DNA from: Carcharhinus amblyrhynchos
Lineage: Eukaryota
DNA: 64,000 nucleotides
Direction: 5' to 3'
Assembly: GCA_965287045.1 (NCBI GenBank)
Contig: OZ336885.1
Span: 61,442,001 to 61,506,000 of the forward strand
Numbering within the stretch: the stretch's first letter is position 1; each line of letters opens with the position of its first letter. Of this stretch, positions 1-62,300 are shown one piece after another. A program made the position numbers.

Positions 1-2248
1 AAGTTCTCACCAATATTGTTGCGTTCTAATTATGTTGATAACGAGCAACCGCAAAAAAAACTCATCTCAGAAAGACGTCGCCGCAGGTTAGGTACAGTGG
101 AATCCATAAAAGGTTCCAAATAATAAGGACTTCCCTGACTCTGGGGAGAATATGGAGCTCCAGCAATGTTCTCGGCCCAATTCATTGATTAAATTTGGTA
201 CATTTATTTCAATCAATAAAGTGAGAATGGTGCCAAACTATATATTCGCGAAATCCTTGAAATCGTGAGAGTGAATGCTGATGCGTCTAAGTGCAGTAAA
301 TCTCGAATGAAGGTTCTCTTATTATCTTTAGGACAAATGTGCAACTAGTTACATAATTCCAGTTCATGGCCATGTCCAGAGTCCAACTGAGCATCAAAAC
401 GGCAATGGAAAGGCAACTACTACAATACAGCCATGACGACCGGGAAGACTGGGAAAAAGAATATACTTCGGCCGCAGTAATCTAATACGAAGAGATTACT
501 TCCAATAATCGCGCTTTAATTATCAATAATTGTGAGTTCAGTGCTCAGTGATGAGTTCACACAACGTCCAAAAACGGCGGCTCATTCCGAAATGACTTTG
601 AAAATAAAAATGTGCAAAGTACATTTTGGCGTGGCAATGCTCTGATATTATGGTTAACACAGCAGACTTCCCCAACTCGACAATAGTCTGAAGATGTTGG
701 ACGACAGTGAGATGTTAATGTTATTAAAATGATTACCGTCCTCTTTAACTTTTAACGTCCTCTCTAAAAAGGAAATAATCATTCTTTTAAAACTAAACGC
801 TTCACTAACATCAGATTTCACAATGCAGCTGATATTTTATTTTCGTATCATACAATAAATTTACGATAGTGAAACTGCCGGAAACCGCGTCAGCGAATCC
901 AACCAATTAGTCACATACTTAACTACATAGAACTCAATTACATCACCAATTGACAACGTCTTGCATCGTAGGCCGCTGGAAATTATGCATACGGCACACG
1001 CCCCACCCCCATTGTAACGTCGTATCTCAATTTACGGCATTTAAATTTTCTCTTCATTCCTCAATTCCTTCGGCGAGCTTCAAATTACTTCGAAGTCCTG
1101 ATTCAATCGGACGTTTGGAACTGTGTCCTTTACAATAATATTTGCGACAAGTGAAGAAACTCAGCCCGTGATGTTGTTGCGTGCGCGAAACAAACGGTAA
1201 TTTCGTATGCAAACTCAGTGGGCATTTACAACTCATGCTCCAGGGGTTGTGCGTGTTCATTTCGTTTGTTAATGTGCCGTTGTGGCACAGGTTGATAATT
1301 ACGGCAACCGATGATCAATCAACAGTACCGGACCTAACTTCCGAATTTAAATGAATTCGAATGACTATCATGGTCGAATTTTAACACATGAATTAAATCT
1401 AAGCACGGGATCTCCGGATTAGCAGGTCAGGTATGGGACCTAAGTATCAAAATGTGACATTGGTTATTAATGCTTGTCTATTGTTCAGTTTACATGAACA
1501 AAATAAAATGAAATAAAATAGGAATCAACACATCTGATTGTATACTATACGTATCAAATTGTTGCCAAAAATTCATCTTATATCACGTGACTCACATAGC
1601 TTAATTTGACAGAGATACCATGATTGACAGTTCAGTCCGAAATAAAAATAACTGCTGCTGGCGAGCACCCTTTTTTTTAGGTATTTGCATACGATAGATT
1701 GATATGGTGCCACAATTTCGACATGAATGTTGGCAGGACAAGCTTAAAACCCCTCATGTCATATATAAAAGAAAAATCAGGGAAGGGAAAGGCGAGAAAG
1801 TTTATTTTCTTGTCAACTTGCTAATGCATGAAATGCAGAAATATATGATTCGAAGCGAGCTATGATTATATTTTATTCTGCACTGGCAACACAACACGAT
1901 GGAAATAAACTGTTAATGGGTGCCTATACTCAAAATTTCTAATAATGCGATGAAATCTCATTTAAATCTCGGCATAGTTTAAATTTATTAAATTTATAAC
2001 GAGGTCAACATCGTGCCTTAATCGTAGTACCTGGTACTTGAGAAAATAATTACAAAAAATGCAAGCAAATTTGGAGATACATCAGGAGCATTTAATCTAA
2101 CAATATCCGTTGAATTCCAAAACACAGGGTTGTTAATATATTGGGGAAAGAACGGAAAAAGAAAACAAGTTAAGAAAGAGGGTAAGAGAGAAAATAAGTA
2201 GAAAGAAAACAAATATGAAATAAAAAGGGGGAAGAGAGAAAGAAAGAG

Positions 2249-2279
<31 letters not shown>

Positions 2280-59300: not shown

Positions 59301-62300
59301 TATCTTGTAGTATTAGATCAAGCATCCACAAACACGTTTTTTTAAATGATTTAGAACGAATCGTCCGGTTCGCTGAAAAAAAATCTTATAGCACATTTGT
59401 ACCTGTTGCCAAATAGTGCGGACGCTTTGAAAAAAAAAGATAGAAAAATGGTTCTTCGCACCCAATTTCTGCACCATAGATTTGCATTTCTCTAGAGCTG
59501 AATGCGTAAATTGGAAAACAAAAATTGCGCAATGGTAGGGAACTATCCAGTAACAACAGCAACAGTAATGAAAACACTGTGGCCGGACACAAGTGGCTCA
59601 AAACAACATTAATTATGTTCCTTATGGCAGGAGAACCTACCAGTAAAAAGTGAAGATAGGGTTTGAATTTACTCGTAACAAAATTAGCAGACGTCGAGCC
59701 AAATTACATGTAAATTGCCCTATTTATAGAAAAAGCTTTCCTAGAATTCTTTGAGTTAATTAATGATGCGCATGCTATTTTCTAAATTCAGGGAATTTGA
59801 GAGATTTTGGCAACTGAATCCTGAGTTTGAAATGTCACCGAGATAAAATGTTATAATTGGAAGCATCGCCACATGGAGGATAAATATTCAATTCCATGAT
59901 CACCCAAAATCGAGAGAGGGTCCACTCCCTTGAAAGTAAGAGTGAACGCATATTACTGGTGTTCTCCACAACACGCATATGTATACCTTTGCTGAACTCA
60001 CACAAATCGCATTGCAGGCATGGCCGCATAAGTCCTATACAGTTCTGGTCGCCACACTACCCGAAGTACGTGGAGGCTTTGGAGAGAGTGCAGAGGATGT
60101 TTACCGCGATGTTGCCTTGCATGAAGGGTCTTAGCTATGAGGAGAGATTGGGTAAACTGGGGTTACTTTCCCTGGAGGTGTATGAAATTATGAAGGGTAA
60201 AGATAGCGTGAACAGTGGGAATGTTTTGTTTTCCCAGGTCGGAGCTGACGATCACGAGGGGTCGCAGGTTCAAGGTGAGATGGGCGAGGTTTACCTCAGA
60301 TATCAGAGGAACTTTTTTTTTTGCAGAGGGCGGTGTCACTGCCAAGTAGGGTGGTAGAGGCGGACACGCTGGGATCGTTTAAGACTTATCTGGATAGTCA
60401 CATGAGCAGACTGAGAATGGAGGGATACAAACGATTGGTCTAGTGGGACCAATGGGCGGCGTAGGCTGGGAGGGCCGAAGGGCCTGCTTCCTGTGCTGTA
60501 TTGTTCTTTGTTCTTTGTATTGAGTGGTGGTTTTGAACTGAATTTGACTTGCAGAGTTAACAACTGTTTTGATTTTTTTTGGAAAATAATGTCTGTGTTT
60601 CCAAACAATGTCGTTAAATTAAGAAGGACAGGTAATTTCAGGGAAGCTGTGCTTCTTAAATAGTTCGTATACTTATGACATATTTTCAATTATTCTCGTT
60701 CTTGTCCGCAATCTCGATTTTCATTCGTTTTAATAATTATGTCCTCGATTGTTTACACAAAGGCAGGCAAACTACCATTTTGTTGTCCGTTGCTCTTCAC
60801 GTTATTCCAGGCAACACTGAACGCCTGCGAACCAAAAATAAATAAATTGGAAAATTAGAAATTAGGAGGATTTGTAACCATATCTACAGGCATATCCTGA
60901 GTTGAGGAGGAAATTCTTCACTCAAAGAGTGGTGAATCTCTGGAATTTTTTGCCCGTTGAAGCAGTAGAGGCTACCTCGCTAAATATATTTAAGTCACGG
61001 GTAGATAGGTTTCTGTTAGACAGGGGAATTAAGAGTTACGGGGAGAAAGCGGGAAAGTGGAACTGATCCACTTCAGATCAGCCATTATCTTACTGAATGG
61101 CGGGGCAGGCTCGAAGTGCTCGATGGCCTACTCCTGCTACTATTTAGAACGTAGAACATAGAACATTACAGCGCAGTACAGGCCCTTCGGCCCTCGATGT
61201 TGCGCCGACCAGTGGAACCAATCCAATGACCCTCTAACCTAAACTATTCCAATGTTATCCATATGCCTCTCCACAGACCATTTGAACGCCGTTAAAGTTG
61301 GCGAGTCCACAACTGCTGCAGGCAGGGCATTCCACGACCTTACTACCCGCTGAGTAAAGAACCTACCTCTGACATCCGTCCTATAATTACCACCCCTTAA
61401 TTTAAAGCTACATCCCCTTGAGTTAGCCATCACCATCCGAGGTAAAAGGCTCTCACTGTCCATCCTATCCAATCCTTTGATCATCTTGTATGCCTCAATC
61501 AGGTCATCGCGTAACCTTCTTCTCTCCAGTGAAAATAACGACAAATCCTTCAGCCTTTCCTCATAAGGCCTTCCCACCATACCAGGCAACATCCTGGTAA
61601 ACCTCCTCTGCACCCTTTCCAATGCCTCCACATCCTTATTATCATGCTGCGACCAGGACTGTACACAATACTTCAAGTGCGTCCGCACCACAGTTTTGTA
61701 CAGTTGTAACATGACCTCACGGCTCCGAAATTCAATCCCTCTACCAATAAAAGCTAACACACCGTACGCCTTCTACAACCTTATCAACCTGGGTGCCAAC
61801 TTTCAGGGAGCTATGCACATGATCACCGAGATCCCTCTGCTCGTACACACTGCTAAGAGTCCTTCCATTAGCCCTACATTCTGTACTCCTGTTATTCTTT
61901 CCAAAATGAATCACCTCACACTTTTCCGTATTAAACTCCATCTGCCACCTCGCGGCCCAGCTCTGCCGCTTATCTATGTCCCTCTGCAAACTGTAACATA
62001 AGAACATAAGAAATAGGAGCAGGAGTAGGCCATCTAGCCCTTCGAGCCTGCCCCGCCATTCAGTAAGATCATGGCTGATCTGTCTTGGCTCAGTTCACTT
62101 TCCCGCCCTCTCCCCATAACCCTTAATCCCCTCGCTTATCAGAAACCCATAAACCCGCGTCTTAAAAATATTTAGCGAGGCAGTCTCCACCACTTCAACG
62201 GGCAGAGAATTCCAGAGATTCACCACCCTTTGAGTGAAGAAGTTCCTCCTCAACTCCGTTCTAAACCGCACCCCCCCCCCCTTTATCTTGAGGCTGTGCC

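What the first reader, a model, noticed from the sequence alone, without database searches (positions are those of the whole stretch)
290..59900. Strict alternation of strand: about five repeated divergent (-/+) gene pairs
Seen, given the module calls: runs are - (0.3-4.3k), + (7.0-10.7k), - (10.9-14.6k), + (15.2-16.9k), - (23.2-26.4k), + (26.7-35.7k), - (36.3-44.9k), + (45.7-51.6k), - (52.3-56.8k), + (58.4-59.9k). Tandem arrays are usually mostly co-oriented. Perfect alternation suggests the duplicated unit was a head-to-head pair of ~11-19 kb, possibly co-regulated paralogues such as two subunits (inference).
Basis: partly seen in the sequence, partly recalled or inferred. Interest (0 to 1): 0.7.

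Follow-up and report, generated by a model that had tools for sequence, protein, structure and literature searches.

The report
Old non-coding tandem repeat with LINEs
The supposed array of back-to-back gene pairs is really four very old, same-direction copies of a 15-23 kb stretch of non-coding DNA, later peppered with CR1-type retrotransposon fragments, which is ordinary genome architecture.

Summary
No gene pairs were found. I scanned 1005 six-frame ORFs of 35 aa or more. The only Pfam family above noise is reverse transcriptase, in 5 ORFs, from 5'-truncated CR1-group LINE copies. These lie in mixed orientation (8 plus, 7 minus).

Low-stringency self-comparison shows four diverged units starting near 0.7, 15.2, 38.2 and 54.7 kb, with periods of 14.8, 22.7 and 16.8 kb. 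Blocks keep the order A-B-D-F-E and are about 63-69% identical over aligned positions. All units are head-to-tail: 59 forward against 3 reverse hits outside one SINE-like family.

The repeated blocks show no codon periodicity, while LINE ORFs of equal divergence do. The repeat is therefore non-coding.

ORF content supports the labels in only 5 of 10 runs. The labels partly track purine/pyrimidine skew that the copies inherited.

Best reading: an ancient tandem segmental duplication, later decayed and invaded by transposons. Interest is low.

The parts
722..1757 (+). Block A, unit 1 (A1), partial copy
   Evidence: nhmmer hits to A2, A3 and A4, all forward, E 8e-13 to 2.6e-11; profile hit at 722-1715 (a training copy)
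2326..3076 (+). Block B, unit 1 (B1), just after an (AAGA)n microsatellite at 2232-2317
   Evidence: forward nhmmer hits to B3 (E 5e-13), B4 (1.6e-11) and B2; TRF
7803..7931 (+). Block F, copy 1
   Evidence: forward hit to 52225-52360, E 1.6e-6
10381..10874 (+). Block E, copy 1 (4.3 kb upstream of A2)
   Evidence: forward hit to 37122-37636, E 2.8e-13
15172..17548 (+). Block A, unit 2 (A2), longest copy
   Evidence: forward hits to A3 (56.5% over 1638 nt, E 2e-31) and to A4 (E 7e-27)
21366..23319 (+). Block B, unit 2 (B2), split into 21366-21547, 21880-22048 and 22970-23319 by later insertions, including a C element at 21554-21921
   Evidence: The B1 positions flanking the break are adjacent (2510/2528), so the C element entered after the duplication
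25060..34216 (+). Block D, copy 1: six collinear sub-blocks (25060-26506, 29978-30809, 31362-32307, 32836-33208, 33479-33658, 33666-34216)
   Evidence: all forward and in the same order as in D2, E down to 3.7e-33. The gaps hold copy-specific insertions: LINE 27947-28597 and C element 32497-32837
37122..37636 (+). Block E, copy 2 (0.5 kb upstream of A3)
38150..39743 (+). Block A, unit 3 (A3)
39768..40655 (+). Block B, unit 3 (B3), contiguous with A3
43605..51661 (+). Block D, copy 2: sub-blocks 43605-44963, 46691-47501, 47800-48882, 49404-49749, 50664-50841, 51165-51661
   Evidence: Copy-specific insertions: LINE 49783-50424 (-), C element 50862-51173, hairpin 47494-47676
52225..52360 (+). Block F, copy 2
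54652..56892 (+). Block A, unit 4 (A4)
59186..59974 (+). Block B, unit 4 (B4); the rest of unit 4 is overrun by LINE copies
7979..9073 (+). CR1-group LINE copy, 5'-truncated (RT C-terminal half and 3' end). A separate 3' tail lies at 6429-6571 (+)
   Evidence: 93% identical to 41807-42891 and 61995-63093; tblastn with P0003, aa 627-957, 68% identity
18158..20707 (.). Two old LINE remnants between A2 and B2: 18158-18736 (+) and 19095-20707 (-)
   Evidence: tblastn with P0003; one RVT_1 member in batch A2 at E 2.4e-4
27947..28597 (+). Old LINE remnant inside D1
   Evidence: tblastn; blastp to the 594-aa RT ORF
41807..43455 (-). CR1-group LINE copy, 5'-truncated and frameshifted
   Evidence: RVT_1 E 1.1e-16 and 2e-13; 92.7% identical to 61993-63422
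49783..50424 (-).
   Evidence: 81% identical to 61152-61785; tblastn
58915..59099 (-).
   Evidence: 94.6-96% identical to the 3' ends of the three longer copies
59884..64000 (.). Nest of LINE copies: 59884-60440 (+), 60878-61145 (+), 61152-61992 (-), 61995-63879 (-, uninterrupted 594-aa RT ORF at 62098-63879), 63869-64000 (-)
   Evidence: RVT_1 E 6.2e-29
6659..7024 (+). Family C, a SINE-like interspersed repeat. Other copies: 3048-3242 (-), 13111-13442 (+), 21554-21921 (+), 32497-32837 (-), 41139-41391 (+), 50862-51173 (+)
   Evidence: nhmmer hits in both orientations. Copies interrupt B2, D1 and D2 in one unit only
47494..47676 (.). Near-perfect foldback (MITE-like hairpin), present in D2 only
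   Evidence: inverted repeat 86% over 185 nt; DNA fold -85.3 kcal/mol, z = -23.6; only sub-threshold Rfam hits

Best explanation
The window is gene-poor, transposon-rich DNA of a non-human vertebrate, most likely a cartilaginous fish. It holds an ancient tandem (head-to-tail) segmental duplication of a non-coding unit about 15-23 kb long, present in four copies with block order A-B-D-F-E.

Inferred history: unequal crossing-over or replication slippage produced the array. The copies then drifted apart to about 63-69% identity over aligned positions (K2P about 0.64-0.79). They lost or gained pieces, and each was independently invaded by a SINE-like element, a foldback element and CR1-group LINEs, some of them recent (three copies are 93% alike).

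The apparent alternation of strands is not gene orientation. It comes from three things:

- Successive runs of a two-state label always alternate.
- Chance ORFs and LINE fragments lie in mixed orientation.
- The blocks carry a purine/pyrimidine skew (A and Da pyrimidine-rich; B, Db and Df purine-rich) that every copy inherited. This makes a composition pattern recur with the unit.

Shown here: the repeat, its direct orientation, its non-coding character, and the identity and orientation of the LINEs.
For: - **Repeat structure.** 26 forward and 8 reverse low-stringency blastn pairs, against 0 in the reversed-sequence control. nhmmer gave 59 forward and 3 reverse hits outside family C; the control gave 5 hits, all microsatellites.
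- **Collinearity.** Eight blocks (A, B, Da-Df) keep the same order in units 2 and 3. Offset changes are explained by copy-specific insertions: LINE 49783-50424, and C elements at 21554-21921, 32497-32837 and 50862-51173.
- **Non-coding character.** Mismatch phase is uniform in A, B, D and E (p 0.17-0.96). Few indels are multiples of three (for example 10 of 60 in A2-A3). LINE ORF controls at 66-83% identity are periodic (p 9e-5, 2e-4, 1.5e-3).
- **Protein level.** Matches between blocks are weak (best E 4e-6). In A, B and the interspersed repeats they fall on both strands of the same block.
- **Domain scan.** Among 1005 ORFs only RVT_1 recurs, in 5 ORFs. Rfam at gathering thresholds and ARAGORN found nothing.
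- **LINE identity.** The 594-aa ORF has 7763 homologues, the best 120 all with RVT_1. Full-length relatives carry AP-endonuclease plus RT domains. Named hits include sharks and rays at 57-64% identity and bird and turtle proteins at about 42-53%.
- **Skew.** Skew sign is shared by homologous blocks for A, B, Da, Db and Df.
- **Context.** CR1-group elements make up 22-34% of elasmobranch genomes (PMC13343379, passages read). They make up 16.5% of this window.
Against: - No eukaryotic genome, transcriptome or repeat library could be searched. Blocks A, B and D could therefore be members of dispersed repeat families.
- Short or fast-evolving exons without a Pfam match cannot be excluded.
- ORFs of 150 aa or more outside LINEs are more frequent than in dinucleotide shuffles: 5 against 1.1 expected, reached by 0 of 200 shuffles. 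This is unexplained.
- Unit 1 lacks block D, and E and F are each seen in only two units. The four-unit model therefore rests mainly on A and B.
- Pairwise distances are nearly equal, so no duplication order could be inferred.
Confidence: 0.8

Rival explanations
1. One reading: a tandem array of about five divergently transcribed gene pairs (a '-' gene and a '+' gene per unit), possibly co-regulated paralogues.
For: A repeat unit of about the right size exists. Skew changes sign inside each unit. There is a modest excess of long ORFs.
Against: - Of 1005 ORFs, none has a recurring Pfam family other than the LINE RT.
- The repeated blocks show no codon periodicity, while LINE controls do.
- DNA-level similarity far exceeds protein-level similarity. 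In A and B the weak protein hits fall on both strands.
- The '-' and '+' halves are not similar to each other in either orientation.
- Labels of homologous blocks conflict for A2, B4 and E.
- ORF content supports the labelled strand in 5 of 10 runs.
- There are four units, not five.
Confidence: 0.03
2. There was no segmental duplication. A, B, D, E and F are old copies of dispersed transposon families, or of one very large element, that happened to insert repeatedly in this region.
For: Pairwise distances are star-like and similar for all copies (K2P 0.64-0.79), as in a burst of transposition. The region is transposon-rich, with 16.5% recognisable LINE. Blocks have strand-specific composition, like retroelement remnants. 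D is missing from unit 1.
Against: - All copies of all five block families are co-oriented: 59 forward against 3 reverse hits. The genuine interspersed family C is mixed, with 5 plus and 2 minus copies.
- Eight blocks keep the same order in units 2 and 3, and A-B adjacency holds in 4 of 4 units.
- No transposon protein domain lies in or next to the blocks.
Confidence: 0.1
3. The array is functional non-coding DNA, such as tandemly duplicated long non-coding RNA genes or regulatory modules. The alignable cores are kept by selection, and the skew switches mark divergent transcription.
For: Kilobase-long cores are still alignable at K2P about 0.7, while the intervening DNA is not. Skew sign is conserved between copies.
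Against: - Identity is flat and low across the blocks, with no sharply conserved islands. The best island is 67% over 170 nt.
- No Rfam family matches at E of 1 or below except a foldback element.
- AT skew has the wrong sign for the transcription-coupled asymmetry that I recall for vertebrates (recalled, not tested).
- Slow substitution rates in cartilaginous fishes could preserve neutral alignability (recalled).
Confidence: 0.07

Closest known systems
Ancient tandem segmental duplication (low-copy repeat) in intergenic or intronic DNA
   Same: Collinear, co-oriented blocks repeat at a scale of tens of kb. Collinearity is broken by copy-specific transposon insertions and by deletions.
   Different: The copies are very old (about 63-69% identity) and no gene is detectable in them. 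Genome-wide copy number could not be checked.
CR1-group LINE retrotransposons of vertebrates (abundant in sharks and rays; PMC13343379, passages read)
   Same: An RVT_1 domain is present. Full-length homologues have AP-endonuclease plus RT. The copies share a 3' end and are 5'-truncated to different lengths (0.14 to over 2 kb).
   Different: No complete element lies in the window. The subfamily (CR1 proper, Zenon or other) was not assigned. The paper's supplementary consensus sequences could not be seen.
Macrosatellites (kb-scale tandem arrays such as D4Z4; recalled)
   Same: Units of kilobase size lie head-to-tail.
   Different: There is no homogenisation. Units are only about 63-69% identical, differ in length from 14.8 to 22.7 kb, and number only four.
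Arrays of divergently transcribed gene pairs (for example histone gene repeats) or the multi-cluster immunoglobulin loci of cartilaginous fishes (recalled)
   Same: The unit repeats at 10-20 kb periodicity.
   Different: No histone, immunoglobulin or other domain appears in any of 1005 ORFs, and the repeated blocks are non-coding.

Membership tests
Tandem array of divergent (head-to-head) gene pairs | Each unit holds protein-coding genes with recognisable ORFs or domains | tested here: not met
   596 ORFs of 46 aa or more and 409 ORFs of 35-45 aa: only RVT_1, in 5 ORFs. Seven other single hits at E 5e-4 to 1e-2 are at noise level for 1005 queries
Tandem array of divergent (head-to-head) gene pairs | Copies are related as coding sequence (codon-periodic substitutions, protein similarity at least as strong as DNA similarity) | tested here: not met
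   Mismatch phase is uniform, p 0.17-0.96, while LINE controls give p of 1.5e-3 or less. Best protein E is 4e-6 against DNA E of 4e-33
Tandem array of divergent (head-to-head) gene pairs | Two genes of opposite orientation in every unit, with consistent labels across units | tested here: not met
   Homologous blocks carry conflicting reader labels (A2, B4, E). ORF content supports the labels in 5 of 10 runs. LINE fragments agree in 3 and disagree in 2 of the 5 that lie in runs
Tandem array of divergent (head-to-head) gene pairs | Unit-level periodicity in a self dot-plot | tested here: met
   Four units with periods of 14.8, 22.7 and 16.8 kb
Tandem segmental duplication | Several blocks in the same order and orientation in each copy | tested here: met
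   A-B in 4 of 4 units; A, B and Da-Df are collinear in units 2 and 3; 59 forward against 3 reverse hits
Tandem segmental duplication | Differences between copies explained by later insertions and deletions | tested here: met
   C element splits B2. LINE 49783-50424 and C 50862-51173 are in D2 only. C 32497-32837 and LINE 27947-28597 lie in D1 gaps
Tandem segmental duplication | Blocks are low-copy in the genome (not dispersed repeats) | not testable with these tools
   No eukaryotic genome collection or repeat library is on hand. Genome contigs holds only bacteria and archaea and was not scanned
CR1-group LINE | Reverse-transcriptase domain with closest relatives among CR1-group elements | tested here: met
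   RVT_1 E 6.2e-29. 7763 homologues, including shark and ray proteins at 57-64% identity and bird and turtle proteins at about 42-53%
CR1-group LINE | AP-endonuclease domain upstream of the RT | tested here: inconclusive
   Present in full-length homologues such as P0003 (PF03372, PF14529). All window copies are 5'-truncated or cut by the window end
CR1-group LINE | Copies share a 3' end and are 5'-truncated to different lengths | tested here: met
   3' ends at 9073, 41807, 61995, 58915 and 6571 align at 94-96%. Copy lengths run from 0.14 to over 2 kb
SINE (family C) | Short, multi-copy, both orientations, inserted independently of the duplication | tested here: met
   7 copies of about 200-370 nt, 5 plus and 2 minus. 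They interrupt B2, D1 and D2 in one copy only
SINE (family C) | Pol III-type head (tRNA-, 5S- or 7SL-like) | tested here: not met
   No tRNA found by ARAGORN. No Rfam hit at E of 1 or below on any C copy. Old copies may be too decayed to show one
Macrosatellite | High identity between units through concerted evolution | tested here: not met
   52-58% identity in MAFFT (--localpair) multiple alignments and 60-69% in local alignments

The most novel reading that the evidence does not exclude
The four units could be a family of tandemly duplicated non-coding genes or regulatory modules held by selection since an ancient duplication. Each unit would carry a divergent transcription start at the A|B and Da|Db skew switches.
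Probability: 0.06. Interest if true: 0.4.

Novelty: already known. Interest (0 to 1): 0.1.

Why it matters
It matters little biologically. An old segmental duplication decaying among CR1-group LINEs and SINE-like elements is standard architecture for a large vertebrate genome.

The case has some methodological value. A reader without tools sensed a real 15-23 kb periodicity at about 63-69% identity. Ordinary blastn misses nearly all of it: 28 of the 35 self hits are LINE, and only one non-LINE hit joins two blocks of the repeat.

If the locus lies near a gene of interest, the copy-specific insertions give a relative timeline: duplication first, then the C elements and old LINEs, then the 93%-identical CR1-group copies and the foldback.

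Tried and rejected
- **Solved structures.** I did not repeat it. Exon-level comparison with solved proteins stayed undone.
- **L2-like guess.** From memory, ORF 22007-22345 (+) looked like the C-terminal part of an L2-like RT. A search among longer proteins found none at E of 1e-3 or below (303 candidates), so I dropped the guess.
- **The 189-aa ORF at 13299-13865 (+).** An exhaustive phmmer search gave one hit, P0121, at E 7.4e-6. P0121 is a 1734-aa repetitive immunoglobulin-domain protein. BLASTP found no alignment between the two. I treat this as uninformative.
- **Marginal Pfam hits.** The single hits among short ORFs were LDLRAD1_C at 5.3e-4, IML1_N at 1.9e-3, OTT_1508_deam at 7.3e-3 and 2TM_P5A-ATPase at 8.4e-3. 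I did not trace them to their ORFs. I read the 137 ORFs of batch A6 and saw nothing protein-like. About four hits at E of 0.01 or below are expected by chance from 409 queries.
- **RNA genes.** Rfam at gathering thresholds gave 0 hits. At E of 1 or below it gave 3, all on the foldback at 47494-47676. ARAGORN gave 0.
- **Further copies.** Profile HMMs of A, B, Da-Df, E and F found no extra copy apart from pieces of B2. Unmasked comparison of the A-B spacers, the unit tails and the rest of unit 1 added only LINE tails, C elements, F and extensions of D sub-blocks.
- **Order of duplication.** K2P distances are nearly equal, at 0.64-0.79, so no tree was built.
- **No binding or structure jobs were run.**

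
Full report
**What the window is.** The window is 64,000 bases with no N and 40% G+C. CpG observed/expected is 0.59-1.1 in 2-kb windows. Only 8 ORFs of 150 aa or more exist under a bacterial-style ORF call. Stop-to-stop ORFs of 90 aa or more number 68. This is the look of eukaryotic non-coding DNA.

The longest ORF (62098-63879, minus strand, 594 aa) is a reverse transcriptase (RVT_1, E 6.2e-29). It has 7763 database relatives among the 8000 candidates scored. Full-length relatives carry AP-endonuclease plus RT domains. Named relatives include shark and ray proteins (Chiloscyllium 64%, Hypanus 59%, Mobula 57% identity) and many bird and turtle proteins at about 42-53%. 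The host is therefore most likely a cartilaginous fish or a near relative. I do not take the contig for human.

CR1-group elements are reported to make up 22-34% of elasmobranch genomes (PMC13343379; I read the matching passages). Recognisable LINE fragments cover 16.5% of this window.

**Are there genes on alternating strands?** I translated all six frames and took every stop-to-stop ORF of 35 aa or more, 1005 in all.

- Pfam was run on all of them in seven batches: 596 ORFs of 46 aa or more and 409 of 35-45 aa.
- The only family found more than once, or with a convincing E-value, is RVT_1, in 5 ORFs.
- Seven other families each hit one ORF at E 5e-4 to 1e-2. That is what 1005 queries give by chance.
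- Rfam found nothing at gathering thresholds, and ARAGORN found no tRNA.
- With a full-length CR1-like protein (P0003), tblastn mapped the LINE fragments. Together with the self-blastn, this gives 15 fragments, 8 on the plus and 7 on the minus strand, in the order +++-+-+-+-++---. That is 10 runs against 8.5 expected, z = 0.83.
- Five fragments lie mainly inside a reader run. Three agree with the label (runs 2, 6, 7) and two disagree (run 8 holds a minus-strand fragment at 49783-50424; run 10 holds a minus-strand tail at 58915-59099).
- Summed ORF length favours the labelled strand in 5 of 10 runs.
- Consecutive maximal runs of a two-valued label must alternate. The 'strict alternation' is therefore close to automatic (my inference).

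**The hidden repeat.** Ordinary self-blastn gives 35 hit pairs. Of these, 28 are LINE against LINE and 7 are not: three microsatellite rows, two C-element rows, one foldback and one short D match.

After masking the LINE fragments I lowered the stringency (word 7, +1/-1).

- This gave 34 pairs, 26 forward and 8 reverse. The reversed (not complemented) sequence gave 0.
- nhmmer with 800-nt chunks gave 99 non-self hits, 82 forward and 17 reverse. Leaving out one interspersed family (C), the split is 59 forward to 3 reverse. Those three rows are a microsatellite-like match, reported twice, and the foldback.
- The reversed control gave 5 hits, all microsatellites.

The hits define four head-to-tail units.

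| Block | Unit 1 | Unit 2 | Unit 3 | Unit 4 |
|---|---|---|---|---|
| A | 722-1757 | 15172-17548 | 38150-39743 | 54652-56892 |
| B | 2326-3076 | 21366-23319 (in three pieces) | 39768-40655 | 59186-59974 |
| D | not found | 25060-34216 | 43605-51661 | not seen (LINE nest) |

- The two D copies match in six collinear sub-blocks.
- E is at 10381-10874 and 37122-37636. F is at 7803-7931 and 52225-52360.
- The order is A-B-D-F-E throughout. The periods are 14.8, 22.7 and 16.8 kb.
- Profile HMMs built from the copies found no fifth copy of A and no D in unit 1.

Changes in offset between copies are accounted for by insertions present in one copy only.

- A C element splits B2 exactly where B1 is continuous.
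- LINE 49783-50424 and C 50862-51173 interrupt D2.
- C 32497-32837 and LINE 27947-28597 lie in gaps of D1.
- LINE remnants at 18158-20707 separate A2 from B2, whereas A3 and B3 are contiguous.

**The repeat is non-coding.**

- In local alignments of A, B, D and E (60-69% identity), mismatches are evenly spread over the three phases (blockwise chi-square p 0.17-0.96). Few indels are multiples of three, for example 10 of 60 in A2-A3.
- Three LINE ORF alignments at 66%, 67% and 83% identity served as positive controls. They are clearly periodic (p 9e-5, 2e-4, 1.5e-3).
- Among 2033 ORFs of 18 aa or more outside LINEs, the best protein-level matches between homologous blocks have E of only 4e-6 to 1e-3. 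In A, B and the interspersed repeats they fall on both strands of the same block. DNA-level E-values reach 4e-33.
- The best-conserved island (33479-33658 against 50664-50841) is 67% identical over 170 nt with a 1-nt gap.
- K2P distances are 0.64-0.79 for all pairs of A and B copies. The copies are old and about equally distant, and no order of duplication can be read from them.

Since all copies are co-oriented, homologous blocks should carry the same label. They do for D (Da '-', Db-Df '+' in both copies). They do not for A (A1, A3, A4 '-'; A2 '+'), B (B1, B3 '-'; B4 '+') or E (E1 '+'; E2 '-').

Homologous blocks share the sign of their purine skew. All four A copies are negative (-0.03 to -0.12), all B copies are positive, both Da copies are negative, and the Db and Df copies are positive. 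LINE sense strands are strongly G-rich.

Pyrimidine-rich stretches were mostly labelled '-' and purine-rich ones '+'. I infer that the 'strand' calls largely reflect this inherited composition pattern plus LINE fragments. This would explain why the calls recur with the unit without marking genes.

**Explanation and rivals.** The best-supported reading (confidence 0.8) is an ancient tandem segmental duplication of non-coding DNA. It later decayed and was invaded by a SINE-like family, old LINEs, a recent wave of CR1-group copies (three copies 93% alike) and a foldback element.

- **Gene-pair model (0.03).** It fails on domains, periodicity, label consistency and unit count.
- **Independent insertion of dispersed repeats (0.1).** Uniform orientation and conserved order speak against it, whereas the true interspersed family C is mixed. 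It cannot be excluded without the host genome.
- **Functional non-coding array (0.07).** This is not excluded. Nothing here supports it beyond alignability and conserved skew.

**Limits.**

- No eukaryotic genome, transcript or repeat library was available.
- Short exons without a Pfam match cannot be excluded.
- ORFs of 150 aa or more outside LINEs are more frequent than in dinucleotide shuffles: 5 against 1.1 expected, reached by 0 of 200 shuffles. This is unexplained. Two ORFs were searched without a useful result.
- Supplementary files of the CR1 paper, which may hold consensus sequences for subfamily assignment, could not be seen.

**Verdict.** The feature is of a known, ordinary kind. 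Interest is 0.1.

Noticed in passing
window 47494-47676: A near-perfect foldback with a stem of about 76 bp (-85.3 kcal/mol, z = -23.6). It is present in D2 but not at the matching place in D1. It looks like a young MITE-like insertion. Its only Rfam matches are sub-threshold hits to plant miRNA precursors (65 bits against a gathering score of 195). A weaker palindrome lies at 46572-46679.
   Followed up: partly
window 59884-64000: A nest of at least five LINE fragments from at least two or three subfamilies, in both orientations. It includes an uninterrupted 594-aa RT ORF (62098-63879, minus). Three copies in the window (7979-9073, 41807-43455, 61995-63422) are about 93% identical, which suggests fairly recent activity.
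   Followed up: partly
window 3048-3242, 6659-7024, 13111-13442, 21554-21921, 32497-32837, 41139-41391, 50862-51173: A SINE-like interspersed family (C) with seven copies, 5 plus and 2 minus, 62-69% alike. No tRNA-like or other Rfam-recognisable head was found. From memory, its translations resemble peptides often seen in fish repeat-derived gene predictions; this was not tested.
   Followed up: partly
window 4479-4985, 13299-13865, 22194-22649, 35373-35822, 52459-52920: Five ORFs of 150 aa or more lie outside recognisable LINEs, against 1.1 expected from dinucleotide shuffles (0 of 200 shuffles reach 5). None has a Pfam match. ORFs 35373-35822 and 35800-36168 overlap in different frames and could be one frameshifted remnant.
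   Followed up: partly
window, whole: CpG observed/expected is about 0.6-1.1 (mostly 0.6-0.9). From memory, this is high for a heavily methylated vertebrate genome. Not explained.
   Followed up: no
window 22325-22837 and 29067-29415: A further two-copy direct repeat (G) lies inside unit 2. One copy is between the pieces of B2 and the other is in a gap of D1. It is probably another old interspersed element.
   Followed up: no
window 18158-18736 and 58090-58236: Units 2 and 4 each have an old plus-strand LINE remnant between A and B, matching different parts of the RT. Units 1 and 3 have none. This could mean that units 2 and 4 are sisters (a two-unit duplication), but direct alignment of the spacers showed nothing beyond LINE tails and one 61-nt match.
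   Followed up: partly
window 9323-9410; 2232-2317; 17154-17224; 24566-24643: A 42-bp unit repeated 2.1 times at 97% identity lies 250 bp past a LINE 3' end. There are also (AAGA)n, (AC)n and (TG)n microsatellites.
   Followed up: no
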